Of a stretch of 51,277 nucleotides of DNA, positions 32 to 50,677 are shown piece by piece. The stretch comes from a phage. Within the stretch, counting starts at the first letter, position 1; each line of letters opens with the position of its first letter. A model generated the notes under the pieces. That model was not told the DNA's origin. It did no database searches and saw only the letters and a list, made by a program, of their open reading frames with translations. The translations under genes and the position numbers were made by a program. The stretch lies in sequence record NC_105513.1. One strand, 5' to 3'.

Positions 32-76
32 ATTATGCCAGGCTTTTACACCTGGCTTTTAACAAAAAGTGCTATT
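32..76 (-). promoter_or_regulatory. box-type promoter (box 57..76, -10 CATAAT 32..37)
   Basis: rc reads AATAGCACTTTTTGTTAAAA-N22-CATAAT; serves gene 50891..51277 across the junction. Confidence 0.6.
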
Positions 77-1898: not shown

Positions 1899-1943
1899 AA
1901 TATACCAATCAGAGGCGCATCGTTTTTAACAAAAAGTGCTATT
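1899..1943 (-). promoter_or_regulatory. box-type promoter (box 1924..1943, -10 TATATT)
   Basis: box, 22-bp spacer, TATATT, then conserved leader CATCGACAACGAATGAGGA. Confidence 0.6.
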
Positions 1944-2393: not shown

Positions 2394-2438
2394 AATATAT
2401 CGGATTGCGAGGATTGAGTTTTAACAAAAAGTGCTATT
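2394..2438 (-). promoter_or_regulatory. box-type promoter (box 2419..2438, -10 TATATT)
   Basis: box, 22-bp spacer, TATATT, conserved leader. Confidence 0.6.
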
Positions 2439-3270: not shown

Positions 3271-3315
3271 ATTATGCCGAATCCAGTCAGGCACGTTTTA
3301 ACAAAAAGTGCTATT
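3271..3315 (-). promoter_or_regulatory. box-type promoter (box 3296..3315, -10 CATAAT)
   Basis: box, 22-bp spacer, CATAAT, leader CACATCGAAACGAGA; first promoter of leftward early block. Confidence 0.6.
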
Positions 3316-4455: not shown

Positions 4456-4708
4456 GGCATTAATTGGAGTTTTGATTGCAATCGCTACCCTTACCGGATG
4501 CGAAAAGGCATCTGAATCAACAGTTGTCGTAGGAGTGGAGTCAGATTTTAAAGTCGGTCGCCTGTTTACTGTTGATGGATGCACTGCGTACCGATTCTAT
4601 GACAACGGTCGAGCAATCTATTACACCAATTGTAAGGGCGCAACGGATAGCACATACCGCAGCGGCAAAAACGTAATGCACCAACAAGTCACAACAGATA
4701 TTAAATAG
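4448..4708 (+). CDS. putative lipoprotein
   Basis: 86 aa; N-terminal signal peptide with lipobox LTGC (MNKALIGVLIAIATLTGCEK). Confidence 0.6.
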   Translation: MNKALIGVLIAIATLTGCEKASESTVVVGVESDFKVGRLFTVDGCTAYRFYDNGRAIYYTNCKGATDSTYRSGKNVMHQQVTTDIK

Positions 4709-4748
4709 CACTTTTTGTTAAAACTCGAAAACGATAACCAGGCATAAT
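4704..4748 (+). promoter_or_regulatory. box-type promoter (-10 CATAAT 4743..4748)
   Basis: AATAGCACTTTTTGTTAAAAC, stop TAG 4706..4708 inside box; 22-bp spacer. Confidence 0.6.
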
Positions 4749-4803: not shown

Positions 4804-5697
4804 ATGTTAAAACTTGCTGACATTAAATTCCCGATCACCTTCGAATCTCGCGGCATTGGTCATTACATTTTTACCGATGAAAAAACATGCCATAAGGTTG
4901 ATATGAATAGCGACAAACTAACCCCATCAACAATGGAGATTGAACACTTTATTGATGCACACAATACGCACTACAACGCACTTAAAGACTATGGCTATGC
5001 AATGCCAGGCTACACATGTTTGCACTACAAGCCATATAAGGGCCAGGTGTTACCAGTGCGCTCACCGGAACGCGCAGAGATTCCGATGGTCAATATGAAA
5101 ACCTGCGACTACAAAAAGCTGTGGTGCTTAAGTCTGGACAATATCAAGTATCCGATCACGTTCCACACGACTGGTAAGTCAACGATTCGCTACACATCGC
5201 GCGACAATGGCGTTTATAGCGATGGTACGAAATCAGGGTTGAAAGTTGATTTCTTTGTCAATGGTCACAACAAGTTCAATCCGCACAATGAAAAGGATAA
5301 GGTGTACTACGTGGAAGATATTACAAAACACTTGTTTGGAGAAACACCATTCGGCGGCGGTAAGACGTCAATTCAACAAATCATTGGCGAGGAGATCCAC
5401 AAGGCAGCCGTTGAAATGAAAGCGCCTGGAGGATGGCGTATTGATAAGAGCGCAATTGTCTATCAAGAAATAGTAACGCAGGGCGCAATTGAAGACATGC
5501 CACTTGCCGCCACGCTAAAAGGCGTCCAAATTGCGGATGGCACATGGTTTGAATTAACGGCAAAACCAAAGACTATCGAGATTCATGATGATGTTGTTAT
5601 TCTTCTGCTTCATTACGGTAGCGCAAAAAACCGTACCGTTGCGGGTGAGATTAGCATCAAGCGCGGAACGATGGTTAAGTGGAATGTCAAAGTGTAA
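4804..5697 (+). CDS. hypothetical protein with internal tandem duplication
   Basis: 297 aa; two homologous segments (LADIKFPITFESRGIGHY... and LDNIKYPITFHTTGKSTI...). Confidence 0.65.
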   Translation: MLKLADIKFPITFESRGIGHYIFTDEKTCHKVDMNSDKLTPSTMEIEHFIDAHNTHYNALKDYGYAMPGYTCLHYKPYKGQVLPVRSPERAEIPMVNMKTCDYKKLWCLSLDNIKYPITFHTTGKSTIRYTSRDNGVYSDGTKSGLKVDFFVNGHNKFNPHNEKDKVYYVEDITKHLFGETPFGGGKTSIQQIIGEEIHKAAVEMKAPGGWRIDKSAIVYQEIVTQGAIEDMPLAATLKGVQIADGTWFELTAKPKTIEIHDDVVILLLHYGSAKNRTVAGEISIKRGTMVKWNVKV

Positions 5698-5740
5698 ATA
5701 GCACGAATTGTTAAAACTCAAATGTGGGGCCAGGTATAAT
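5697..5740 (+). promoter_or_regulatory. box-type promoter (-10 TATAAT 5735..5740)
   Basis: AATAGCACGAATTGTTAAAAC; 21-bp spacer. Confidence 0.6.
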
Positions 5741-6759: not shown

Positions 6760-6917
6760 TCTGGTTACTTTTAATCTTTGTCACAAGTTACAATTCCGCC
6801 GCTATTGAATCGCAAGAGTTCCACGGCGAATCAAGATGCCAGGAAGCACGAAAACAAGTTGTTCTCCACATGTCAGATAGTGGGAAAGATGTAACAGCGC
6901 TATGCGTTCGTAAATAG
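6756..6917 (+). CDS. small membrane protein (MIWLL family, 53 aa)
   Basis: ATG overlaps upstream stop; hydrophobic N-terminus MIWLLLIFVTSY; stop TAG embedded in promoter box. Confidence 0.45.
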   Translation: MIWLLLIFVTSYNSAAIESQEFHGESRCQEARKQVVLHMSDSGKDVTALCVRK

Positions 6918-6957
6918 CACTTTTTGCAAAAACACATTATCGGGCTTGCGGTATAGT
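6913..6957 (+). promoter_or_regulatory. box-type promoter (-10 TATAGT 6952..6957)
   Basis: AATAGCACTTTTTGCAAAAAC; 21-bp spacer; conserved leader CCCATCGACAACAAGCGAGGA. Confidence 0.55.
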
Positions 6958-9273: not shown

Positions 9274-9561
9274 ATGGCTAAAAGCAATCGTAAAATGTTG
9301 ATTAACGCATTCGAAAAGGCAGCGCTTGAGCGTGGCTGGAATGACTCATTTCACACAGCAAACTGTATCCGCCGTTACGGATTCAAGAATTGCCGCTCCT
9401 GGGCGCGTCAAATGGCTTCATGGTATGATCTTGATGCGCATTACCTTGATATGGATTGCGCCCTTGTTGAAATGATTGAGCAGGCCGCATTAGAGGATCG
9501 ACCATTAACGCAATCTGATTTTGACGATTTTGTGCGCGATGAAATTTATTATATGAGCTAA
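9274..9561 (+). CDS. hypothetical protein
   Basis: 95 aa, RBS AAGGAGGAAG; stop followed by promoter box. Confidence 0.55.
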   Translation: MAKSNRKMLINAFEKAALERGWNDSFHTANCIRRYGFKNCRSWARQMASWYDLDAHYLDMDCALVEMIEQAALEDRPLTQSDFDDFVRDEIYYMS

Positions 9562-9604
9562 TAGCACTTTTTGTTAAAACTTCCGCGAGGGCATTTGTTA
9601 AAGT
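9560..9604 (+). promoter_or_regulatory. box-type promoter (weak -10 TAAAGT)
   Basis: AATAGCACTTTTTGTTAAAAC; 22-bp spacer to TAAAGT. Confidence 0.45.
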
Positions 9605-18035: not shown

Positions 18036-18054
18036 CACAAAATTATGTTGCACG

Positions 18055-18072
18055 TTTAACAAAAAATGCTAT
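18055..18072 (-). promoter_or_regulatory. orphan box copy, inverted relative to flanking genes
   Basis: TTTAACAAAAAATGCTAT about 50 bp upstream of major capsid ATG; no -10 at 21-22 bp on the minus strand. Confidence 0.4.
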
Positions 18073-18118
18073 CATTGTGGCGTTACATACTAACAGCCTT
18101 TATATATGGAGGAAGAAA

Positions 18119-21746: not shown

Positions 21747-21752
21747 TCACAA

Positions 21753-21774
21753 GGGGCGTTGCGCCCCTTTTTTT
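21753..21774 (+). terminator. rho-independent terminator after major tail gene
   Basis: GGGGCG-TTG-CGCCCC then TTTTTTT. Confidence 0.7.
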
Positions 21775-21813: not shown

Positions 21814-21832
21814 TTTTAACAAAAAGTGCTAT
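21814..21832 (-). promoter_or_regulatory. orphan box copy, inverted, abutting RBS of chaperone gene
   Basis: TTTTAACAAAAAGTGCTAT directly before CAAGGAGAAAGAAATG. Confidence 0.4.
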
Positions 21833-21845
21833 CAAGGAGAAAGAA

Positions 21846-27679: not shown

Positions 27680-27705
27680 GTCGCGCGTTGCGCGGCTTTT
27701 TTTTT
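27680..27705 (+). terminator. rho-independent terminator before J-like gene
   Basis: GTCGCGC-GTT-GCGCGGC then nine T. Confidence 0.65.
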
Positions 27706-32320: not shown

Positions 32321-32348
32321 AAAAGGGGCTTTCGCCCCTTTATTTTTA
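32321..32348. terminator. bidirectional terminator between convergent genes
   Basis: AAAAGGGGC-TTTC-GCCCCTTTATTTTT, A-run and T-run on either side. Confidence 0.65.
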
Positions 32349-32607: not shown

Positions 32608-32651
32608 ACTATACACGATCTTGCGGTGGGCGTTTAGCAAAAAGTGCTATT
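32608..32651 (-). promoter_or_regulatory. box-type promoter (box 32634..32651, -10 TATAGT)
   Basis: rc AATAGCACTTTTTGCTAAA-N22-TATAGT upstream of lipoprotein gene. Confidence 0.55.
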
Positions 32652-35200: not shown

Positions 35201-35207
35201 TTGACAT

Positions 35208-35230
35208 GGGGCGCTTGCGCCCCTTTCTTA
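35208..35230 (+). terminator. possible terminator / attenuator before ssb
   Basis: GGGGCGC...GCGCCCC then TTTCTT. Confidence 0.45.
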
Positions 35231-35697: not shown

Positions 35698-35704
35698 TCA
35701 ACAA

Positions 35705-35726
35705 AGGGGCACTACGCCCCTTTTTC
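35705..35726. terminator. bidirectional terminator between ssb and convergent gene
   Basis: AGGGGC-ACTAC-GCCCCT then TTTTTC; A-run upstream. Confidence 0.6.
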
Positions 35727-37714: not shown

Positions 37715-40111
37715 TTAACTCTCAAGAGTTGTTGGCTTGTTGATCAATGCAGAAACAGCCGCTTTTAACTCCTCTATTTCTTCTCTCATTGATTTCAAGT
37801 CTTCTTCTTGCTCCTTACATACCTGAAGTAAATATGCTGAAATTGCTGAGTAATCAACTTGTAAAAATTCAGCTTTACCTATTAACTCACTTCCGTCTTT
37901 CGTCGGCCCTTGAAGATAATCATAATCCTCAAAAGTGCTAACAGCTTCAGGAATAACTCCTTGAACTTCTTGTGCTATAACTCCAACATGACGAGATCCA
38001 TCTTTCTTAAGTGTGTATGAATACCCACACAGTTTACTAAGTCCATCCCTTGCATTCTTAAGTGGTTTTATATCTTCCTTAAGATTTACATCCGATCCCT
38101 GGTTGAAAGCGCTTGCGTTTACAGGTCCGTTAACCTGAAGATGCTTTGTGTTATTTGAGTTTAATTGCGCATAAAAAACCCACCCAGGGCCATTATCGAA
38201 ACCACACTCAATAACCGACAATCGATCTGACCCATTACCCCACAATTTGAAGGTTGCAGGGTGTGACGAGTTGCCGTCGTTCAGCATTTTGAAATACTTT
38301 CCGCTCGGACGGTCGATCTCTAAACTTGCGGCCTGGACGTATGCCTTGCCCGCAAAATTCTTTGTACCAAGCACAACGCCGTCTGTGATCAGATCAACCT
38401 TAGACGATGTAACATCGTTCAGGAATAGCGCGTTCGCCCCAGTGTCCTTCCCTAAAAACCAAAGACGCGTGCCTGCTGAGTTGTACCCTGTTACGTGCAG
38501 TGGTTGGTTGTTTGTTGACGTTGTTCCGTCGATCCGGAAGCCACCATTAGCGGTTGTAACTTTAATGCTGGGTACGGTCATAGCAAATGTGCCACTGGCT
38601 GCAAGGCCATTATAGGCAATCAGCTTGTTGTCATATGCAAGCTCACCATTGTCCCTTAATTGCAAGAATTTATTAGATGCCGAGTTGGAAACAGAAACAT
38701 CATTAGGCCAGGTGCGAAGAACTGCGCGCTTTTCGTCCCCTCTAGCCTCCACCGAAGAACCAGCGACCACCCCAGAAAAAGTCGGCGACGACCCCGCGTT
38801 ATACAGTTCGTACCACTGCGACCATGGGCCAGTCGTCGCGTTGCCTAGCCATCGAATCCAACGCCGCCCGTTGCCGTAGGCGGTGTACGTCTGTACGCAA
38901 CTCTTCGGATCGTTAGCACCGGATCTTTGCACCAGTAAACAACCCGCCATGTTAATAGGATAGTTACGCTCTGGGGTGGCGTTAGCCGACATGGACTGAT
39001 AATAAAATCCAGCCTTATCACCCTGAAGGATGTTAAGGTCTTCGCTAACCAACGTTGCCCGTCGCTCATGCATGACCTGAAGGTTGGCGCGCGCTCCCTG
39101 GTCGTTCGATGCGCCTGTCCCGCCGTCCCCGATCGCCACGTCACCGTTAGCACCCAGCTTCGCCAGTTCAATGGCGCCAACACTTCCCGACGCACCGTTG
39201 ATCGCGTTGTTGTTCCCCGAGAAAACTTTAACGCGCGAGGTTTGCCAATCAACGTTGATTGCAAAGAATGTATCCCCCGCGCCTCCACATACGCCAGGTC
39301 CGTATCTGAAAGGGGTCATCTCACCCGATGGGAACTGCGAAATATCATCGACGCGCCAGAATCCTCCTTTGACCGTATCGCGCAACCGCTTGAGCATATC
39401 CCTTACGCCAGTCGGTGCCGGTAATGTTACGCCAGCATACGGCACTCTATTTTGAGCTTCTGAGCTTTCAGCAGCAGCCGCTGCGCGATCAGCCTCTGTT
39501 TTAGCCTTGTTCGCACTGTTTGCAGCATTAGTTTCAGATGTTTTGGCGTTTGTCTCAGAAGTCTTCGCGGCACTAGCCGAGTTAGCAGCATTAGTTTCCG
39601 ATGTTTTAGCCGCATTCTTACTTGCATTAGCTGCATTTTCAGATGCTTTGGCATTAGTTTCCGATGTTTTAGCGTTTGTCTCAGAAGTCTTCGCAGCGCT
39701 GGCGCTTTGTTTTGCTGATTCAGCGCCTTGCTTGACTTGATTTACAAGATCCTTCAATCCTTCAAGATCGAAATCTCTAAAAAATTCAAGTGCGTCAGCG
39801 ATCTCTGTTTCTTTGCTTTGATAGTAACGCAATGTTTCAGCTACATCTTGAGCAAGACCATCAACAGTTATTGAGTCATGAAGTAAGATCGCGTAATTTG
39901 AACGGGCAACTACCGCGCCACCAGTTGTAATTGCACGAATGCTTGTATCGTTAATAACTTCAGTTATCACGGCAATCTGCAACGGCTGAGTTAAAAATAC
40001 AATAGTTGCACCAGGGCGAATGAGCGTTAGTTGCTCTCGCCATTTTGTGTCGTATCCAGTGATATAACCTTGCGCGTCCATTGACGCTTGTCCTGTTCTG
40101 TAAATTGCCAT
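37715..40111 (-). CDS. L-shaped (side) tail fibre, T5 pb1-like, with C-terminal intramolecular chaperone domain
   Basis: 798 aa from MAIYRTGQ (RBS GGAGAAA); AAKTSETNA-type repeats as in T5 pb1; C-terminal segment resembling S74 self-cleaving chaperone domain. Confidence 0.8.
39480..39720 (-). repeat. in-frame tandem repeats (about 62-bp period) inside tail fibre gene
   Basis: GCATTAGTTTC(A/C)GATGTTTT(G/A)GC recurs at about 39527, 39589, 39651; encodes AAKTSETNA-type repeats. Confidence 0.7.
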
Positions 40112-40169
40112 GCGCTTTCTCCAATGTTGCATGTTAATGTCAATGAAGATAATAGCATTTGCTAAGGCC

Positions 40170-40193
40170 AAAAAAAACCCCGCAATGCGGGGT
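40170..40193 (-). terminator. rho-independent terminator after primase-like gene
   Basis: ACCCCGC-AAT-GCGGGGT; minus strand followed by eight U. Confidence 0.65.
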
Positions 40194-40209: not shown

Positions 40210-41142
40210 TTAGAGAATTGATTCAGGTTTGAAAACCTTCCTCTCTATCCCTTGCCTGTAATTATCATTAATCGGCATCATAATTTCAAGACCTCTTTCC
40301 TCTGCGGCAATGATAGCGTCACGATCTGTGCTCTTACAGACAACTCGCATTCTTCTGTTGCCTTTATACCTGTAAGCAACAATCTCAATGTTAGTCGCAT
40401 CAAAGCAGGCCCAAACCTCTTGACCAGTTGCAAGGTGAATATGTTGCGCATCAATCCAGTCAACGCAAAGATAGATAGTCTTATCTGTGCTTCCTGTTCT
40501 CACAACCGACCCGCGCGTGTAATCCTTAGCGAGAAAAGATTTATTTCCTTCTTCATCAATGAAAAGCACATTGCACATTTCATCATCAATCTCATCTGAG
40601 TGTACCAGGTGACACGGTAGCGCGTGAATGTATCGACCATCTTTAACGCCGCATTCATAATAACCATCTTCAGGCGGATATATCCCTTCATATGTACTTA
40701 ACGGCGTGCGATCAAATTTTAGTGTTTTTGACATAACGCGCTCGCAGCATTCATGGCTTGCCTGCTTCCCAAACGAATAACCAGAATCACGAGATACTCG
40801 CTTATTTGCCTTGATCCTATAGTCCTGCGGAACTTTTCCAAGAAAGCGGCCCAAAATATTGATCACTTCGCTGTAAGGTTCTCCGGTTAGCTTCATGATC
40901 CAACCAATTCCAGTATCGTTTCCGCACACATTGCAGATAGCGCCGCCGTCGCCTTTTTTATCTCCAAGTTTATCAGTCCATCTAAAGCGATCCTTTCCGC
41001 CGCAGTGTGGGCAAGATTGATGCTTGCCGTTAAAAACTTCATTTGGAAGACCGCAAATACTTTGTAGCGCCTCACGCCATAATCCCTGCATATATGGGAG
41101 AACATCTTCCTTTTGATAAACCATAAAGTTTTCGTTATTCAT
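40210..41142 (-). CDS. putative DNA primase (zinc-ribbon, Toprim-like)
   Basis: 310 aa from [10 protein letters not shown] (RBS GAGGTG); CPHCGG...CNVCG zinc ribbon; acidic C-terminal domain. Confidence 0.5.
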
Positions 41143-41198
41143 ATGCACCTCAAACAAAAAAGCCTGACAGATGATAACATCATGCCAGGCATTGGTTT

Positions 41199-41672
41199 TT
41201 AGCAATTAGTGCTTTCAGGTTTATACAGGAATCCTCCAGGCTCATAATCTGACATTCTTACCACTCGCAACATTTCGCGCTTATCACATCTCTTTGTGAG
41301 CGGTTTGCCATTGGAATCAAATCGCAGATCTGGACGACAGAATGATGCGCGATAGCCTTGACATCCATATTTTTTGTAATCGTTATGCACCTTTTGAGCG
41401 CCAGCGGCTGAAATCATACCGCGAACGCGCCACTGATTTACAGTTTGCTGGCTAACGTTAAGACGCTTTGCCATTGCTGACACGCTGCCGTAATACTCAA
41501 TAAGAATGTCAAGCCGTGCTTTTAGTCCGGCGCGCACTTCATCTTTTAAAACATAGTATCCTGTAGGGCGCTTGCGCTTTTTCTTATCTTTACCCCGTCG
41601 AGTTCCGTTATTGCCATTGATTGTGCGTTTGTCAATCTTACCAGTTGATACTGCGATTCGCTGTTCTTTCAT
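41199..41672 (-). CDS. putative DNA-binding protein
   Basis: 157 aa; basic N-terminus (KDKKKRKRP) and helix-turn-helix-like LNVSQQTVNQWRVRG. Confidence 0.45.
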   Translation of the reverse strand: MKEQRIAVSTGKIDKRTINGNNGTRRGKDKKKRKRPTGYYVLKDEVRAGLKARLDILIEYYGSVSAMAKRLNVSQQTVNQWRVRGMISAAGAQKVHNDYKKYGCQGYRASFCRPDLRFDSNGKPLTKRCDKREMLRVVRMSDYEPGGFLYKPESTNC

Positions 41673-41684
41673 TATTCATTCTCC

Positions 41685-41728
41685 AATAGCATTTTTTGTT
41701 AAACGATGATTTAATGATTGTGTATTAT
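41685..41728 (+). promoter_or_regulatory. box-type promoter (-10 TATTAT 41723..41728)
   Basis: AATAGCATTTTTTGTTAAAC; 21-bp spacer; upstream of helicase gene. Confidence 0.55.
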
Positions 41729-41761
41729 ACACGCCAAATGGCATTACTCAAAGGTTTTAGA

Positions 41762-43801
41762 ATGATTCCAAACATTGAAAAGCAAATATCAGCACTTGGT
41801 GAGGCGGTAATTAAATCCATTCAGGAGCGATTCACTGTTGGCGATATTGTGCCTTACCCTTACCAGTGCGTTGCATACGCTGAGATCGCAAAGCGTATGA
41901 AAAATTATGAGCATCCATTCTTTGTTAAAGCGTCCGTATCGGCTGGCAAAACATTGATGTTTGCAATGGTTGCTCACCAGTGCCGGAAAATGGGCTTGAA
42001 AATGATGGTACTTGCTCGCCAGGCTGAGATTGTGGATCAGGATTCTGAAGAGATAACAAATCTTGGTGTGCCGAACTCCATCTATTGTGCAGGACTGAAG
42101 ACAAAAAGCGCATACTTTCCGATCGTTGTTGGCTCTGAGGGAACTGTAGTTAATGGACTGTTTAAAGCGCTTGGCGACTATGTTCCGCACGTTATCGGGA
42201 TTGACGAGTGTCACCAGGTGGATTGGGAAGACCTTGCCGACGCAATAGAGAAAGACGAATCATTTTTACAAATGACGACGAAGAAAGGCGAAAAAGTACC
42301 AAATCCAGATTATGACATAACTAGCGATAACGAATGCGAAGAGTTTCTGATTGGTGAGGATGGATTGCCAATGGAGGGAACAGGCCGCACACAATACACT
42401 GTCATTATCATGGAAATGATGCGCCGCTGCCGGAAAACATATGGTCATGAACTGCGCATCTTTGGTATGACTGGATCAGAGTTTCGCGGCGTGGTTCCGA
42501 TCCTTGTCGAAGATAAAAAGCAGAAAGGATTCTGGCGCGAACAGGTTACTAATATTGACACCAACTACCTGATCAAATTCGGTTCTGTTGTGCCAACAAA
42601 TTTTGGCGACGTTGGCGATCTAGGGTATGACCTTTCAGAGTTTGAGGCATCCAGTGAGGATGGCGTTGCAGACTTTGACGCTAAAACGCTTCGCAGGATG
42701 GAACAAAAAATTCATGAAGAAGCGACCATGACAAAGCGCATCATGGCGAAAGTTCACGAGATCTGTAAAAACCGTAACGGCGTACTTGTTACATGTGCAG
42801 GAGAAAGGCATTGCAAAGAGGCAGCGGCAGCTTTGCCACCTGGAACGACTTACAGGATCATTACTGGTAAGACTGGCGACAACCAGCGCAAGGAGTGGTT
42901 GAAGGAAGCATACGAGGGGAAGGTAAAATACATCTTCCAGGTTCAGGCGCTAACAACTGGCGTTAACGTGCCGTTTTGGGATACGTCGGTTATATTGCGT
43001 AAGATTGGATCTCTTACGTTGCTGATTCAGCTTTTAGGGCGCGGAATGCGACTACTTAAGAAGTGGCATAAGGAGCAAGGATTCCAGAAAGATGATCATC
43101 TCGTCATGGATTTTTCAGGAACGATGGACGAGCTAGGGGAGCTTTATTTTGATCCGATACTGGAACAGGCGCAGCACCAGAAGCGATTCAGAAATGGTAA
43201 AGATCCGAAGCCTTGTCCTATTTGCGGAACTCTTAACAGCTATTATGCTCGTCGCTGTATGCACGTAGACGAAGACGGCAACAGATGCGAGTGGTTCTTT
43301 AAATTCAGGACATGTGACGATCAGGTTGACCCACGCACTAAAAAGATTATTCAGCGCGGTTGTGGAACGAAAAATGATATTGCGGCCAGGGTATGCAGAC
43401 ATTGCGACATGTCATTGATTGACCCTAACGAGAAGTTAAGCGGAAAGCACTACACAAAAAACGACTGGTTCCAGGTGCAATCTTTCTCGGTTGACATGAC
43501 GAAAAACCAGAAAGGGATAATATTTAATTATGAGCTTTCCGATGGCATAGACACTTTCAGGGCGAGAGAGATATTTTTCCCTGAATCTGAGAGCCAAATT
43601 TGCCGCGCAAAATGGCGAAGCGTTGCTCTTAAGCACATACCAGATCGCCGCGTTGCTGGCATGGTGGCGAGCTATCGTAATGCACGAAAAATAATGCAAT
43701 ATGTTAATCACATTATGCCGCCATCGCGTGTGACTCACCGCAAGACTAGCAAGGGCGAAGATAATTTGTACAAGAAGGAATTTAATTATGGCAATGACTG
43801 A
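41762..43801 (+). CDS. ATP-dependent helicase (superfamily 2) with C-terminal zinc fingers
   Basis: 679 aa from MIPNIEKQ; Walker A SAGKTLMF, DECH box IGIDECHQV; C-terminal CPICG...C...C clusters. Confidence 0.8.
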   Translation: MIPNIEKQISALGEAVIKSIQERFTVGDIVPYPYQCVAYAEIAKRMKNYEHPFFVKASVSAGKTLMFAMVAHQCRKMGLKMMVLARQAEIVDQDSEEITNLGVPNSIYCAGLKTKSAYFPIVVGSEGTVVNGLFKALGDYVPHVIGIDECHQVDWEDLADAIEKDESFLQMTTKKGEKVPNPDYDITSDNECEEFLIGEDGLPMEGTGRTQYTVIIMEMMRRCRKTYGHELRIFGMTGSEFRGVVPILVEDKKQKGFWREQVTNIDTNYLIKFGSVVPTNFGDVGDLGYDLSEFEASSEDGVADFDAKTLRRMEQKIHEEATMTKRIMAKVHEICKNRNGVLVTCAGERHCKEAAAALPPGTTYRIITGKTGDNQRKEWLKEAYEGKVKYIFQVQALTTGVNVPFWDTSVILRKIGSLTLLIQLLGRGMRLLKKWHKEQGFQKDDHLVMDFSGTMDELGELYFDPILEQAQHQKRFRNGKDPKPCPICGTLNSYYARRCMHVDEDGNRCEWFFKFRTCDDQVDPRTKKIIQRGCGTKNDIAARVCRHCDMSLIDPNEKLSGKHYTKNDWFQVQSFSVDMTKNQKGIIFNYELSDGIDTFRAREIFFPESESQICRAKWRSVALKHIPDRRVAGMVASYRNARKIMQYVNHIMPPSRVTHRKTSKGEDNLYKKEFNYGND

Positions 43802-44207
43802 TAAAGGCGATTATCTGGAGTTTTACGAAAGAGATCCGACAGATACTCTGAAAGAGGAATCGCACCAGATCGGGGCGTTTCAATGGGTAACTTATGCTCA
43901 TCCTGAATTACTGGCATGGCATACGAAAAACGAGGGCGATAAGGGAATCGCCACCGCAATGATGGATCAGCAAGCCGGACTAGTTAAGGGTGTAAGTGAT
44001 TTTATCATCCTGATTGGATTAAAAGGCCGTTACCCGTTCGCGGCAATAGAGATGAAGCGCGTCAATAAGTCCGGCAAGGGGAAGGCTTCACCAGTCAGCA
44101 AGGATCAAAAAGCCTTCTTGCGCCGTGTGCGTGAGCTTGGCGGATTCGCTGCCGTAACATACGGATATAAGCAATTCATGATCGCTGTAGAATACATGAT
44201 GAAATAG
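43788..44207 (+). CDS. putative VRR-NUC domain nuclease
   Basis: 139 aa; GVSDFIILIG ... AAIEMKR resembles PD-(D/E)XK VRR-NUC core; adjacent to helicase. Confidence 0.5.
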   Translation: MAMTDKGDYLEFYERDPTDTLKEESHQIGAFQWVTYAHPELLAWHTKNEGDKGIATAMMDQQAGLVKGVSDFIILIGLKGRYPFAAIEMKRVNKSGKGKASPVSKDQKAFLRRVRELGGFAAVTYGYKQFMIAVEYMMK

Positions 44208-44247
44208 CACTTTTTGTTAAAACTGGCGCGAAGGATTGCGCCATAAT
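44203..44247 (+). promoter_or_regulatory. box-type promoter (-10 CATAAT 44242..44247)
   Basis: stop TAG 44205..44207 inside box; inverted repeat in spacer; upstream of dam. Confidence 0.6.
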
Positions 44248-44987: not shown

Positions 44988-45245
44988 ATGCAAAAAGAAA
45001 GAAGCATTTATTTAAATGAAACTGGAAAGTGGTTGTTATTTCGCGCTATGGTATGCGATGCACTTGATAAAAACCCTAACGTGAAAAAGATGATTGATTG
45101 CGATCCGTGGGAATTTTCAAGCGCATTAGACATGAGCTTTGAGGAGATCAAAAAACTCCCGCTTGAAAAATGGAACGAGCAAATCAGAAATGACATGCAA
45201 GAATTTGTCGATTCGTGGAATTTTCAGCACGGAATAATCCACTAA
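44988..45245 (+). CDS. hypothetical protein
   Basis: 85 aa from MQKERSIY, RBS GGAG. Confidence 0.5.
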   Translation: MQKERSIYLNETGKWLLFRAMVCDALDKNPNVKKMIDCDPWEFSSALDMSFEEIKKLPLEKWNEQIRNDMQEFVDSWNFQHGIIH

Positions 45246-45288
45246 TAGCACTTTTTGTTAAAACGCCCGACCTTGTGTCGGGCATAAT
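45244..45288 (+). promoter_or_regulatory. box-type promoter (-10 CATAAT 45283..45288)
   Basis: 22-bp spacer containing inverted repeat GCCCGA...TCGGGC. Confidence 0.6.
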
Positions 45289-47798: not shown

Positions 47799-48197
47799 AT
47801 GAGAAAGTTATCAATAATCGCAATCGCTGTTATTTTGTCTGGATGTTCAAGCGTTATGCCACTGACCGGATTAATCGGTAGTAAGCCGGAAATCACAGCA
47901 CAGGCAGGAGCGGAGAACGTAAAGCAGACCGTTGGCGTTACCGCAAAGCAGGACACCAGCACAAAACAGGAAACTACAATAAATGAATCTGCGGTTGATA
48001 AGGTGGACAATTCCAGCAAGAAGGATTTTACTACGTCAACCATTCAGGCTAACACCATCAAGGCTGATAAAATCCAGGTCGTGCAAGGTGGGCAAAGGAA
48101 GTGGTACGATCCTATAATCTATTGCGCGGCAATTTTTAGTGGTCTTTTGTCAATGCTTTACTTTTCCTACCGCAAAGGCAACAAAAAGGAGGCTTAA
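47799..48197 (+). CDS. unimolecular spanin (T1 gp11-like)
   Basis: 132 aa; N-terminal lipobox LSGC plus C-terminal TM helix IIYCAAIFSGLLSMLYFSY. Confidence 0.65.
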   Translation: MRKLSIIAIAVILSGCSSVMPLTGLIGSKPEITAQAGAENVKQTVGVTAKQDTSTKQETTINESAVDKVDNSSKKDFTTSTIQANTIKADKIQVVQGGQRKWYDPIIYCAAIFSGLLSMLYFSYRKGNKKEA

Positions 48198-48213
48198 CGC
48201 CTCCTTTGTTTTA
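48182..48213. terminator. bidirectional terminator after spanin gene
   Basis: GGAGGC-TTAAC-GCCTCC then TTTGTTTTA; spanin stop inside loop. Confidence 0.65.
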
Positions 48214-48465: not shown

Positions 48466-48510
48466 AATATACCCGATACGAGATCAGGTGTTTTAACAAA
48501 AAGTGCTATT
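48466..48510 (-). promoter_or_regulatory. box-type promoter (box 48491..48510, -10 TATATT)
   Basis: 22-bp spacer; conserved leader CATCGAAGCGAATATGAGGA. Confidence 0.6.
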
Positions 48511-48700
48511 CAATACGCTTTACAGTAACCAACAAAACTCCGTCCTCATCACACAAATTATGCTCTGATATATCAAACGCTCGCATGTCAGAATGAATGA
48601 GCGTTAACATTGCGTGCATGAAGTCGTCATGTGAGATTGAACTTACGGCGCAGAACTTCAATATTTTGTCTATTAGCATTTGACGTAAACAATTCTTCAT
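48506..48700 (-). CDS. hypothetical protein (start uncertain)
   Basis: ORF overlaps 48627..49019 in another frame; stop TAG embedded in promoter box. Confidence 0.35.
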   Translation of the reverse strand: MKNCLRQMLIDKILKFCAVSSISHDDFMHAMLTLIHSDMRAFDISEHNLCDEDGVLLVTVKRIE

Positions 48701-49019
48701 CGCTCATTTCTCCGATCCGTAAAGCATCTCTTACCCATTCGTTTTGCATACCTTCCAGGCTGTAAAGTTCAAACGAGAAAGGGCGATTTGCTGATCCTTT
48801 CTTACACCAGAACTTTCCACCAACTCCATCAAGATAACCAGCGGTCATCATTCTTGCGCAAAATTCTTTTGAAACGGCACTTGCAAACATCCTCGGAGTA
48901 AATCCTGCGGCCCTTGCGAGCCGCTCACATTCTCTGTGCTGAAAGATAAATTTTGCTATATGTTGACGTGTAAACCATTCGAATGACTCACACCATCGAT
49001 ACAGATCCAGAAGAAACAT
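48627..49019 (-). CDS. hypothetical protein
   Basis: 130 aa ORF downstream of the large ATPase gene. Confidence 0.45.
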   Translation of the reverse strand: MFLLDLYRWCESFEWFTRQHIAKFIFQHRECERLARAAGFTPRMFASAVSKEFCARMMTAGYLDGVGGKFWCKKGSANRPFSFELYSLEGMQNEWVRDALRIGEMSDEELFTSNANRQNIEVLRRKFNLT

Positions 49020-49021
49020 AA

Positions 49022-50605
49022 TTACCCCAGCAATGTTGGATTTACAAAAACAACGCCATTAATCACACAAATATAATTTCTTTCTTCAAGCATCGGCAGC
49101 AGTTGCGTTTCCATACGCTTCATTACGCCAGCCTGGCCAACAAACGGCTTAACTTTTCGTGCAGCCTCATATATGGCGCGCACATTCAAGATCCCCTTGT
49201 TAGCCTTACCGTGTCGAGTGATGATCTCGATTAGTTTACCCATTTCAGCATCATCACCAGCATAGCCAGAAGCGTTGGCGGCGCTAATGTATGTTTTGCT
49301 CAACTCGCTAAACATCAGCAGTGCTTCCTGAACGGTTTCAACCTCAATCTCTTTCGACTTTTGAGGGTATCCGCCAGGATTAAACCAATTGCGGATAGTG
49401 TGCAAAACCGAAGCAATCCTGATCACCTGCTTATCCATTTTGCCAAGCGCACCGCGCAGCATTGTATGCGAATACTTTCCGCCATCGGCAAGGTGCGGTT
49501 CCATCTCCTGACGAGCCATGTTAAGAACTCGCATTGCGGATTTGCTGATCTTAAGCTGGATGTTCGATTCACTCATGATGTTATGGATCAGCTTGAAATA
49601 TTGGCTTTTCAGTTCTCCATCAACAGGTTCATAAGTAGAATCACCGTTATCATCAACAAACTTTCTACGGCCTAAAAATGATTCCTCACGCACAAGCAAA
49701 TAACGCTCACTTACACCGATACCGCGCGATCCTGCATCCATGATGGCATTGATTGTTTCATCCTGGGCAATTACCGCCATACAGCCAAGAGCTTTAAAAC
49801 TCATATTGTTGTCAGCGTTTGCGCGAGCTATAGAAACATGACCGTGATCCCATGCTTTTAATACAAGTTCGCTGTTGGTTTTACGTTCGCTATTGGCATA
49901 TGTCAGACCTAAAAGGCTGTTAATACTTGTTGCCTCGTCTGAAATCACAGCAAAGTTACCCTGGCGATTGTTGATTCTTGCAAGTCCTTCCGGCGTTGTG
50001 TCGGACACAGGGAAAACGATGTCACACATCTTTTCCAGTTTTTCTTCCAGATCTTCTTTCTCCTGGTACAGAGATTCCATATCAGCGCCGGAGCGCTCGC
50101 TTTTCATCTCTTTTGCAAGACCTGCCAACTTTGCCTGAATCTTTTTTCTTTCCTTCTTTCGCTGTTCATTAATTCTTTCCACTTCAGCAACCATAGGAGC
50201 AAGTGCCAGGCTGTTAACGGCAGATTTACCAGTTGATGGAGGCTGGCTTGTGACAACGTAAAGAGCGGTTGGTTGATCCGTTCCGTGATACTCAACCGTG
50301 AAGCGTCCAAGCATTGCAGCAGACACGCAGCCGATAAAATGCATATATGCCGATGATTCAGGGAACTGAACTGATCGAGCAATGTTGCGCGCCAACTTAC
50401 CAACAACATCAATATCATTGCCAAGAGAAATTACAGGGTAGCGATCGTTTCCGTTATTAACATCATTAACCTCACCCCAAAAGCTGGACGATTGACGGTA
50501 TCCGTTTGCCTGAATGGACACGCGCACAGGAGACAATCCTTGTGCATCAGCTAATTCGATAATTTGTTTTGGTGTTAGTTTATTGGTTTCAAACGAAAAA
50601 TTCAT
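49022..50605 (-). CDS. putative P-loop ATPase (replication-associated?)
   Basis: 527 aa from MNFSFETNK (RBS AAGGAG); deviant Walker A SQPPSTGKS and Walker B-like FAVISDEA. Confidence 0.55.
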   Translation of the reverse strand: MNFSFETNKLTPKQIIELADAQGLSPVRVSIQANGYRQSSSFWGEVNDVNNGNDRYPVISLGNDIDVVGKLARNIARSVQFPESSAYMHFIGCVSAAMLGRFTVEYHGTDQPTALYVVTSQPPSTGKSAVNSLALAPMVAEVERINEQRKKERKKIQAKLAGLAKEMKSERSGADMESLYQEKEDLEEKLEKMCDIVFPVSDTTPEGLARINNRQGNFAVISDEATSINSLLGLTYANSERKTNSELVLKAWDHGHVSIARANADNNMSFKALGCMAVIAQDETINAIMDAGSRGIGVSERYLLVREESFLGRRKFVDDNGDSTYEPVDGELKSQYFKLIHNIMSESNIQLKISKSAMRVLNMARQEMEPHLADGGKYSHTMLRGALGKMDKQVIRIASVLHTIRNWFNPGGYPQKSKEIEVETVQEALLMFSELSKTYISAANASGYAGDDAEMGKLIEIITRHGKANKGILNVRAIYEAARKVKPFVGQAGVMKRMETQLLPMLEERNYICVINGVVFVNPTLLG

Positions 50606-50632
50606 TGGTGATAACTCCTTTTTGATGCGGCA

Positions 50633-50677
50633 ATAATACCGCACCAATGCTACCCGCATTTAACAAAAAATGCTATT
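50633..50677 (-). promoter_or_regulatory. box-type promoter (box 50659..50677, -10 TATTAT)
   Basis: 22-bp spacer; leader CATCAAAAAGGAG; upstream of ATPase gene. Confidence 0.6.

What the first reader, a model, noticed from the sequence alone, without database searches (positions are those of the whole stretch)
49022..50605. Large early P-loop ATPase of unclear function
527-aa protein with a deviant Walker A (SQPPSTGKS) and a Walker B-like FAVISDEA about 90 residues later, expressed from its own box promoter in the leftward early block. It is distinct from the SF2 helicase at 41762 and the primase-like gene at 40210. It may be a replication initiator, helicase loader or primase-associated ATPase.
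Basis: partly seen in the sequence, partly recalled or inferred. Interest (0 to 1): 0.4.

Follow-up and report, generated by a model that had tools for sequence, protein, structure and literature searches.

The report
MCM-like replicative helicase of T1-like phage
The gene is the DUF3987-family, MCM-like AAA+ DNA helicase that T1-like phages carry for their own DNA replication; it is already annotated as a helicase in public records, so the finding is real but ordinary.

Summary
A 527-aa gene lies at 49022-50605 (-), with a strong ribosome-binding site, a deviant Walker A (SQPPSTGKS) and FAVISDEA 97 residues later. K127 and E224 are invariant in 108 relatives. The repeated 'box' upstream is also real.

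The function is not unclear. The window is a Hanrivervirus (Drexlerviridae). The gene is 100% identical to the 'putative helicase' of Escherichia phage JLBYU09 and orthologous to T1 ST9, annotated 'DNA helicase'. It matches Pfam DUF3987 (E 1e-43). Kazlauskas et al. (2016) classed that family as MCM-related SF6 replicative helicases, and one member was shown in 2025 to be an ATP-dependent helicase.

Best reading: a ring-shaped replicative helicase working with the phage DnaG-type primase and host Pol III. A helicase-loader role is unlikely. No experiment exists for this phage.

Novelty: already known. Interest: low. The promoter box and a coupled winged-helix gene downstream are the more curious by-products.

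The parts
49022..50605 (-). CDS of the 527-aa DUF3987 / MCM-like AAA+ helicase (stop codon 49022-49024)
   Evidence: ORF listing; SD and start; Pfam DUF3987 E 1.1e-43; PHROG 2373 'DNA helicase'; 100% identical to the JLBYU09_83 'putative helicase'.
50658..50677 (-). 20-nt promoter-type 'box', AATAGCATTTTTTGTTAAAT; its TAG (50673-50675) is the stop codon of the upstream 73-aa ORF
   Evidence: 16 copies in the window against 0.02 expected; same layout at every copy; coordinates.
50633..50638 (-). -10-like hexamer TATTAT, 19 nt after the box
   Evidence: All 16 box copies have an 18-19 nt spacer; 13 then carry a good -10-like hexamer, and three have weaker ones (TAAAGT, TATGCG, TAGCAT).
50615..50620 (-). 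Shine-Dalgarno AAGGAG, 9 nt before the ATG
50306..50605 (-). N-terminal helical region (residues 1-100); no OB fold
   Evidence: DSSP of the model shows only helices at 12-22, 26-34, 37-42, 67-79 and 83-97. In relatives this region is replaced or preceded by DnaB-N, DnaG zinc-ribbon or PriCT-2 domains.
50222..50248 (-). Deviant Walker A, SQPPSTGKS (residues 120-128); K127 invariant
50030..50221 (-). Long antiparallel helical hairpin inserted after the P-loop helix (residues about 129-192), rich in K, E and R
   Evidence: Model helices 127-169 and 173-192, pLDDT above 95. The spacing is conserved in the family. This region causes the spurious coiled-coil hits.
49931..49954 (-). Walker B strand, FAVISDEA (residues 218-225); E224 invariant, S222 near-invariant, D223 variable
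49793..49840 (-). Beta-hairpin between Walker B and sensor 1 (residues 256-271), in the place of a pre-sensor-1 hairpin. It carries invariant R261. The R264 column is R in 100 of 108 sequences but A in this protein.
   Evidence: DSSP strands 256-259 and 268-271; column counts. The DNA-binding role is inferred.
49760..49774 (-). Sensor-1 position: strand VIA followed by Q281 (Q in 107 of 108 sequences)
   Evidence: Assigned by position in the AAA+ topology (inference).
49697..49711 (-). SERYL (family consensus SERFL) with invariant R301 just before strand 302-306; candidate arginine finger, reminiscent of the MCM 'SRF' motif
   Evidence: The equivalence to the MCM SRF motif is inferred; profile alignment could not confirm it.
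49271..49618 (-). Helical lid region (residues 330-445) with invariant K389
49025..49255 (-). C-terminal winged-helix domain (residues 451-527)
48627..49019 (-). Downstream 130-aa gene (T1 ST10 occupies the same position), starting 2 nt after the helicase stop codon; winged-HTH fold; possible DNA-binding partner (inferred)
40210..41205 (-). DnaG/T7-type primase (zinc ribbon); presumed functional partner, about 8 kb away
   Evidence: Pfam Zn_Ribbon_Prim E 1.9e-12; PHROG 510 'DNA primase'. The partnership is inferred from fusions in relatives and from adjacency in phage Vi II-E1.

Best explanation
The gene encodes the phage's own replicative DNA helicase. It is a member of the DUF3987 family, whose ATPase core is an MCM-like (superfamily 6) AAA+ domain.

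Proposed mechanism:
- The protein assembles into a ring, presumably a hexamer.
- ATP binds between subunits. K127/S128 (Walker A) and E224 (Walker B) come from one subunit, and R301 (arginine finger) comes from the neighbour.
- ATP hydrolysis moves the basic hairpin at residues 256-271 (R261) along single-stranded DNA in the central channel and unwinds the fork.
- The phage DnaG-type primase (40210-41205) primes on the unwound strands, and host DNA polymerase III, which the phage does not replace, extends the primers.
- The C-terminal winged helix, and possibly the translationally coupled winged-helix protein encoded just downstream, would place the helicase on phage DNA.

Shown here: family membership, motif conservation, fold, domain fusions in relatives and gene context. 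Inferred: ring formation, the roles of R261, Q281, R301 and K389, the primase and polymerase partnerships, the loading route, and early expression from the box promoter.
For: - Pfam DUF3987, 150 bits against a cutoff of 27, residues 82-431. PHROG 2373 'DNA helicase', E 9e-246.
- K127, E224, R261, G297, R301 and K389 are invariant in 108 relatives of 23-72% identity.
- AlphaFold model: pLDDT 94.9, pTM 0.92.
- The secondary-structure order fits an AAA+ core with a hairpin before sensor 1, followed by a winged helix.
- Relatives carry a DnaG zinc ribbon, a DnaB N-terminal domain or PriCT-2 in front of the same domain. That is the position a replicative helicase domain normally occupies.
- In phage Vi II-E1 the homologue sits beside the primase, the SF2 helicase and exonuclease VIII.
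- The annotated close relative slyngel has no DNA polymerase, DnaB or DnaC.
- The gene is present in 918 phage records.
- Literature: DUF3987 was classed as MCM-related SF6 putative replicative helicases with a C-terminal wHTH, and the N4 dns member is essential for replication (PMC4889955). The PriCT-DUF3987 protein AgaPH unwinds DNA 5'->3' with ATP or dATP, is killed by Walker A or Walker B mutations, and binds its primase-polymerase (PMC11724360).
Against: - No experiment exists on this protein or on any Drexlerviridae orthologue that I could find.
- The phage also has an SF2 helicase (41696-43801), so the division of labour at the fork is not known.
- The primase gene is about 8 kb away and not adjacent.
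- My own profile-profile comparison with an MCM alignment was not significant (probability about 2%, E 0.02-0.03; only the Walker A region aligned). No Pfam MCM hit was found. The MCM link therefore rests on fold comparison and on the literature.
- The Walker B aspartate is not conserved.
- From memory only and unverified: a 1980 paper title states that T1 DNA synthesis needs host dna elongation genes. If these include dnaB, this protein would not be the only fork helicase.
Confidence: 0.72

Rival explanations
1. Origin-binding initiator or loader. The protein would mainly recognise the phage origin through its winged helix, melt the DNA, and recruit or load the host DnaB helicase, as lambda O/P or DnaA/DnaC do, without driving the fork itself.
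For: - A C-terminal winged helix resembling ORC and Cdc6 winged helices.
- No separate initiator or loader is annotated in the close relative.
- A winged-helix gene is coupled downstream.
Against: - The best fold matches are MCM motor domains, not DnaA, DnaC or ORC AAA+ cores. ORC and Cdc6 matches cover only about 80 residues, the winged helix.
- There is no DnaC/IstB or DnaA family hit.
- Relatives place this domain after DnaB-N or primase domains, where a helicase domain belongs.
- A family member is a true helicase (PMC11724360).
Confidence: 0.12
2. Accessory recombination or fork-remodelling motor. It would be a branch-migration or restart helicase, comparable to ComM, RuvB or MCM8/9, supporting recombination-dependent replication and concatemer formation while host DnaB moves the forks.
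For: - ComM and MCM8/9 are among the fold matches.
- The phage encodes Erf, exonuclease VIII, SSB and a VRR-NUC nuclease, so recombination matters to it.
Against: - Family fusions are with primases and DnaB-N, not with recombination domains.
- The SF2 helicase next to the VRR-NUC nuclease is the more obvious remodelling pair.
Confidence: 0.12
3. A non-replicative ATPase, for example one acting against host defence, in host takeover or in packaging, that merely shares the fold.
For: - The gene sits among small genes of unknown function in the leftward block.
- Timing and phenotype are untested.
Against: - Everything listed for the best explanation argues against this.
- There is no significant defence-library match; the only PADLOC hit, JetC, lies in the coiled-coil insert at E 0.0046.
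- The terminase is encoded elsewhere.
Confidence: 0.04

Closest known systems
DUF3987 family (Pfam PF13148), including AgaPH (PriCT-DUF3987 helicase, PMC11724360), the phage N4 dns protein and T1 ST9
   Same: The full-length domain matches above the Pfam threshold. The Walker A lysine and Walker B glutamate are conserved. There is a C-terminal winged helix, and the gene lies in a mobile-element or phage replication context alongside a primase.
   Different: The protein stands alone with no fused PriCT, AEP, DnaG or DnaB-N domain. Its primase gene is about 8 kb away. It has a short helical N-terminus. No biochemistry exists for this subfamily. AgaPH's reported 5'->3' polarity has not been tested here.
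Archaeal and eukaryotic MCM (SF6 AAA+ replicative helicase)
   Different: There is no N-terminal OB-fold or zinc tier. A helical hairpin of about 65 residues is inserted after the P-loop helix. No obvious helix-2 insert is present. Sensor 1 is Q. Sequence similarity is below detection in my tests. It has a bacterial-type primase partner.
Self-loading MCM-like or AAA+ helicases of staphylococcal elements (SCCmec Cch; SaPI Rep/primase-helicase; PMC7581432, PMC9371898)
   Different: They belong to different Pfam families (DUF927, D5-like) and are much weaker structural matches than MCM itself.
DnaB / T7 gp4 (SF4 RecA-type replicative helicases)
   Same: They have the same presumed job at the fork. 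Relatives of this protein even carry the DnaB N-terminal domain or a T7-type primase zinc ribbon.
   Different: The ATPase fold is unrelated (RecA-type rather than AAA+). No DnaB_C match was found.

Membership tests
DUF3987 (PF13148) | Match to the family HMM above the curated gathering score | tested here: met
   150.3 bits against a cutoff of 27; residues 82-431 cover profile positions 3-350 of 364.
DUF3987 (PF13148) | Conserved Walker A (GxxxxGK[ST] with variation) and Walker B acidic residue | tested here: met
   K127 and E224 are invariant and S128 is S or T in all 108 sequences. The first G is Q in 104 of 108. D223 is variable.
DUF3987 (PF13148) | [quoted passage not shown] | tested here: met
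DUF3987 (PF13148) | Fused to, or encoded next to, an AEP or DnaG primase (typical of the family, not obligatory) | tested here: not met
   In this window the primase gene (40210-41205) is about 8 kb away, and the neighbours are small ORFs of unknown function. Relatives do show fusions and adjacency.
DUF3987 (PF13148) | ATP-dependent DNA unwinding | not testable with these tools
   Shown only for AgaPH (PMC11724360).
MCM / SF6 AAA+ helicases | AAA+ core whose closest solved structures are MCMs | tested here: met
MCM / SF6 AAA+ helicases | Detectable sequence homology to the MCM domain (PF00493) | tested here: not met
   No Pfam MCM hit at E up to 1. No MCM found by a profile search of the PDB. 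hhalign against a 43-sequence MCM alignment gave probability about 2%, E 0.02-0.03. The literature reports 98% HHsearch probability for a different DUF3987 member (PMC4889955).
MCM / SF6 AAA+ helicases | N-terminal OB-fold / zinc-binding tier | tested here: not met
   Residues 1-100 are all-helical in the model.
MCM / SF6 AAA+ helicases | Pre-sensor-1 beta-hairpin | tested here: met
   Strands 256-259 and 268-271 lie between the Walker B strand (218-222) and the sensor-1 strand (274-280), with invariant R261. This was judged from the DSSP string only, because coordinates could not be inspected.
MCM / SF6 AAA+ helicases | Helix-2 insert hairpin | tested here: inconclusive
   Helix 205-215 is uninterrupted in the DSSP string. 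The large insertion is instead a helical hairpin after helix 1. No residue-level superposition was available.
MCM / SF6 AAA+ helicases | Trans-acting arginine finger (SRF motif) and hexameric ring | not testable with these tools
   Invariant R301 in S-E-R-F/Y just before strand 302-306 is in the expected place. No multimer model or assay was possible.
DnaC/DnaI/IstB-type helicase loaders | Family HMM match, and an initiator-clade AAA+ fold without a pore hairpin | tested here: not met
   No such Pfam or NCBIfam hit was found. The best fold matches include no DnaC or DnaA. A hairpin is present before sensor 1.
DnaB (SF4) helicases | RecA-type DnaB_C domain | tested here: not met
   No DnaB_C hit was found, and the fold is AAA+.

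The most novel reading that the evidence does not exclude
T1-like phages may run a hybrid replisome. An MCM-like AAA+ ring with no OB-fold tier would load itself at the origin through its own winged helix together with the co-translated 130-aa winged-helix protein. It would translocate 5'->3' like DnaB, as reported for AgaPH, rather than 3'->5' like MCM. It would also couple directly to a bacterial DnaG-type primase and to host Pol III, making replication independent of host DnaB and DnaC. The family-specific 65-residue helical hairpin after the P-loop would be the docking arm for primase or for the clamp loader.
Probability: 0.25. Interest if true: 0.5.

Novelty: already known. Interest (0 to 1): 0.2.

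Why it matters
The result corrects 'unclear function' to a specific, testable assignment: the phage's own MCM-like replicative helicase. The family is widespread, with 918 phage records and more than 2,400 representative clusters. It is still poorly studied, with no solved structure and one biochemical paper. Drexlerviridae would therefore be a convenient genetic system for asking how an archaeal/eukaryotic-type motor works with a bacterial primase and Pol III. For this window, however, nothing goes beyond existing annotation and the 2016 and 2025 literature.

Tried and rejected
- Sequence searches of the PDB, with the single protein and with the 108-sequence profile, returned only spurious coiled-coil matches to the helical insert (augmin, caprin-2, ROCK1, designed helical proteins). 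No helicase was found.
- The WWC1, OmpH, LysM-regulator and JetC hits fall in the same insert or are below threshold, and I rejected them.
- I compared the profile with a 43-sequence MCM alignment using hhalign. Only the Walker A region aligned, with probability about 2%. Removing the insert and the termini did not help. Residue-level equivalence of Walker B, sensor 1 and the arginine finger with MCM therefore could not be shown by sequence.
- The simple sigma-70 scan did not detect the promoter upstream of the gene. Its only nearby minus-strand hit (50730-50701) is a different, weak site. The box promoter came out of the repeat search instead.
- Literature searches for T1 genetics and host dna-gene dependence, and for defence-escape mutations in this gene, found nothing usable. 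A search for the box sequence found no paper.
- I considered and rejected the helicase-loader and DnaB-type readings (see the membership tests).

Full report
**What is there**

The window is a T1-like siphophage genome. The 1.6-kb region is 100% identical to Escherichia phage JLBYU09 (Drexlerviridae, Tempevirinae, Hanrivervirus), where it is annotated 'putative helicase'. It is 97-98% identical to many relatives annotated 'DNA helicase', 'putative helicase' or 'hypothetical protein'.

The mechanical ORF is 49022..50659 on the minus strand. AAGGAG lies nine bases before the ATG at 50605, and no ribosome-binding site precedes the ATG at 50659. Homologues are 520-531 aa.

SQPPSTGKS is residues 120-128 and FAVISDEA is residues 218-225.

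**Are the motifs real?**

An exhaustive search of 1.8 billion representative proteins gave 2,409 relatives at E up to 1e-3. I aligned 108 of them, at 23-72% identity to the query.

- K127, E224, R261, G297, R301 and K389 are invariant.
- Q121, P122, S128, S222, Q281, E300, E307 and R314 are conserved at 90% or more.
- The first glycine of a canonical Walker A is replaced by Q in 104 of 108 sequences. The motif is deviant, but it is a family signature.
- The Walker B glutamate is invariant. The preceding aspartate is not: it is D in 49 of 108, and otherwise mostly A or S.
- The long spacing between the two motifs, median 98 residues, is also a family trait.

**What family?**

Pfam places residues 82-431 in DUF3987 (E 1.1e-43, 150 bits against a cutoff of 27). 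PHROGs places the whole protein in phrog_2373 'DNA helicase' (E 9e-246). NCBIfam and PADLOC gave nothing meaningful.

The family has been treated in the literature:

- Kazlauskas, Krupovic and Venclovas (2016, PMC4889955) identified DUF3987 proteins as divergent superfamily-6 helicases distantly related to MCM. They noted a C-terminal winged helix and frequent fusion or adjacency to AEP or DnaG primases. They predicted that these proteins are phage replicative helicases. They placed the N4 dns protein, which is essential for replication, in this family.
- A 2018 paper (PMC5862659) lists DUF3987 among the ATPase domains that substitute for MCM, RepA or DnaB in primase fusions.
- A 2025 paper (PMC11724360) purified a PriCT-DUF3987 protein, AgaPH. 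It is oligomeric and unwinds 5'-tailed and forked DNA with ATP or dATP. It loses activity on Walker A or Walker B mutation, and it binds its primase-polymerase.

**Structure**

The 108-sequence alignment gave an AlphaFold2 model with mean pLDDT 94.9 and pTM 0.92. By DSSP its order of elements is:

- a helical N-terminal region (residues 1-100);
- strand 116-120, followed by the P-loop;
- a 43-residue helix (127-169) that returns as helix 173-192, forming a charged helical hairpin;
- helix 205-215;
- strand 218-222, carrying Walker B;
- a beta-hairpin, 256-259 and 268-271, carrying R261;
- strand 274-280, ending at Q281;
- helix 282-293;
- R301, immediately before strand 302-306;
- a helical lid (330-445) containing K389;
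- a winged helix (451-527).

This is the AAA+ order, with a hairpin in the pre-sensor-1 position. Q281 sits at the sensor-1 position and R301 at the arginine-finger position. These role assignments are inferences from position.

Sequence-only methods did not reach MCM in my hands:

- PDB searches returned only coiled-coil noise from the helical insert.
- hhalign against a 43-sequence MCM alignment aligned just the Walker A region, with probability about 2%.

The MCM relationship here therefore rests on fold comparison and on the published HHsearch result for another family member.

**Context**

Relatives carry a DnaG-type zinc ribbon (P0147), a DnaB N-terminal domain (P0196, P0254) or PriCT-2 (P0228) in front of the same domain. 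That is where a replicative helicase domain normally sits.

In this window the partner genes are separate:

- a DnaG/T7-type zinc-ribbon primase at 40210-41205 (-);
- an HTH regulator at 41199-41672 (-);
- an SF2 helicase at 41696-43801 (+), followed by a VRR-NUC nuclease.

In phage T1 the orthologue is ST9, annotated 'DNA helicase'. It is followed by ST10, which occupies the same position as the 130-aa ORF downstream here. In the more distant Salmonella phage Vi II-E1 (35% identity), the homologue lies directly beside the primase, the SF2 helicase and exonuclease VIII.

The RefSeq annotation of the close relative slyngel lists no DNA polymerase and no DnaB- or DnaC-like gene. Host polymerase must therefore be used, and this protein is the only ring-helicase candidate. 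By tblastn the gene is present in 918 phage records, mostly phages of Klebsiella, Escherichia, Salmonella and Shigella.

**Expression signals**

AATAGCACTTTTTGTTAAAA occurs 16 times at 3 mismatches or fewer, against 0.02 expected. In all 16 copies an 18-19-nt variable spacer follows the box.

- In 13 copies the spacer ends at a good -10-like hexamer: CATAAT, TATATT, TATAAT, TATAGT or TATTAT.
- Three copies have weaker hexamers: 9560 (+) with TAAAGT, and 18054 (-) and 21814 (-) with TATGCG and TAGCAT.
- A semi-conserved CATCGAnAACGA leader, a Shine-Dalgarno sequence and an ATG usually follow.
- Thirteen copies, among them 32632 (-), point the same way as the gene that follows. Copies 18054 (-) and 21814 (-) are antisense within the plus-strand structural block and have no obvious downstream gene.

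The copy at 50658-50677 (-) has the standard geometry: 19 nt, TATTAT, AAGGAG, then the ATG at 50605. T1 has 11 copies, and one of them lies about 55 nt upstream of ST9.

The geometry does not fit a sigma-70 -35 element. TTGTTA would give a 22-nt spacer, and the plain consensus scan missed the site. The box copies in sense orientation precede non-structural genes only, which is compatible with an early or middle promoter class. Neither promoter activity nor timing has been measured.

The transcription unit probably continues into the 130-aa gene. The helicase stop codon and the next ATG are 2 nt apart. The leftward block ends at a bidirectional hairpin at 48185-48207.

**The downstream gene**

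**Mechanism and rivals**

- **Replicative helicase (about 0.72).** An MCM-like AAA+ ring hydrolyses ATP at inter-subunit sites and threads ssDNA past the basic hairpin. It works with the phage DnaG-type primase and host Pol III.
- **Initiator or loader for host DnaB (about 0.12).** The fold, the fusions in relatives and the family biochemistry argue against this.
- **Recombination or fork-remodelling motor (about 0.12).** ComM and MCM8 score well below the best MCM matches, although MCM9 ranks among them. The SF2 helicase with the VRR-NUC nuclease is the more obvious pair for that job.
- **Unrelated role (about 0.04).**

Open points:

- AgaPH's reported 5'->3' polarity is unusual for an AAA+ helicase.
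- How the ring is loaded is unknown.
- It is not known whether host DnaB is dispensable. I recall only the title of a 1980 study stating that T1 needs host elongation genes, and I could not check it.

**Verdict**

The gene is already annotated as a helicase, and the family has been described and partly characterised. Novelty is 'already known' and interest is low, about 0.2.

Noticed in passing
window 57-76(-), 1924-1943(-), 2419-2438(-), 3296-3315(-), 4704-4723(+), 5697-5716(+), 6913-6932(+), 9560-9579(+), 41685-41704(+), 44203-44222(+), 45244-45263(+), 48491-48510(-), 50658-50677(-); also 18054-18073(-), 21814-21833(-), 32632-32651(-): A 20-nt box, AATAGCACTTTTTGTTAAAA, has 16 copies against 0.02 expected. 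Each copy has a fixed 18-19 nt spacer, and most are followed by a good -10-like hexamer and a semi-conserved CATCGAnAACGA leader. The geometry does not fit a sigma-70 -35 element, which suggests an activator-dependent or otherwise unusual promoter class for the non-structural genes. Phage T1 has 11 copies. No paper containing the sequence was found.
   Followed up: partly
window 72-74, 48506-48508, 50673-50675 (minus strand): The TAG inside the box serves as the stop codon of the upstream gene in at least three copies. Gene ends and the next promoter are therefore fused into one element.
   Followed up: partly
window 18054-18073(-), 21814-21833(-), 32632-32651(-): Three box copies point antisense within the plus-strand structural gene block. 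The copy at 32632 precedes a small minus-strand gene with a good SD. That gene is in the position of the Cor superinfection-exclusion gene of T1 and slyngel. The other two have weaker -10 hexamers and no obvious downstream gene.
   Followed up: no
window 48627-49019 (-): A 130-aa gene starts 2 nt after the helicase stop codon (GGGGTAATTATG). It has no Pfam family. Its model (pLDDT 87) has an N-terminal winged-HTH resembling MarR, ArsR and PadR domains. T1 ST10 occupies the same position. It is a candidate DNA-binding partner of the helicase.
   Followed up: partly
window 50030-50221 (-), residues 129-192 of the helicase: A family-conserved, highly charged antiparallel helical hairpin of about 65 residues is inserted after the P-loop helix. 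I did not see it in the MCM comparison. It is responsible for all the spurious coiled-coil database hits, and its role is unknown.
   Followed up: partly
window 39525-39703 (within the minus-strand ORF 37715-40171, tail fibre): A run of imperfect 21-nt-periodic repeats (GCATTAGTTTCAGATGTTTTGGCG...) lies inside the long tail-fibre ORF. This implies a 7-residue repeat in the protein (family D4).
   Followed up: no
window 21751-21772, 27680-27701, 32322-32343, 35207-35228, 35704-35725: A family of GC-rich hairpins followed by T runs (AAGGGGCGTTGCGCCCCTTTTT) sits between late genes. They look like intrinsic terminators, at positions matching the terminators annotated in T1.
   Followed up: no
hits H5, H6, H9-H11 (MG0656xx records): About 20 GenBank records named 'Campylobacter phage' with host Campylobacter jejuni are 97% identical to this E. 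coli and Salmonella phage gene. The host attribution looks doubtful, perhaps through contamination or mislabelling.
   Followed up: no
L003 2916-2940 and 3147-3171 (Salmonella phage Vi II-E1): Two annotated copies of a 25-nt repeat, GTGGGGCAACCAACCTGCCCCACGA, lie just upstream of the DUF3987 helicase gene of Vi II-E1. They may be origin or regulatory repeats. No comparable repeat was seen next to the gene in this window.
   Followed up: no
L002 46085-46624 (phage T1 ST8): In T1 an HNH endonuclease gene is inserted immediately upstream of the helicase orthologue ST9 and abuts its start codon. The box copy then lies inside the 3' end of that HNH gene.
   Followed up: no
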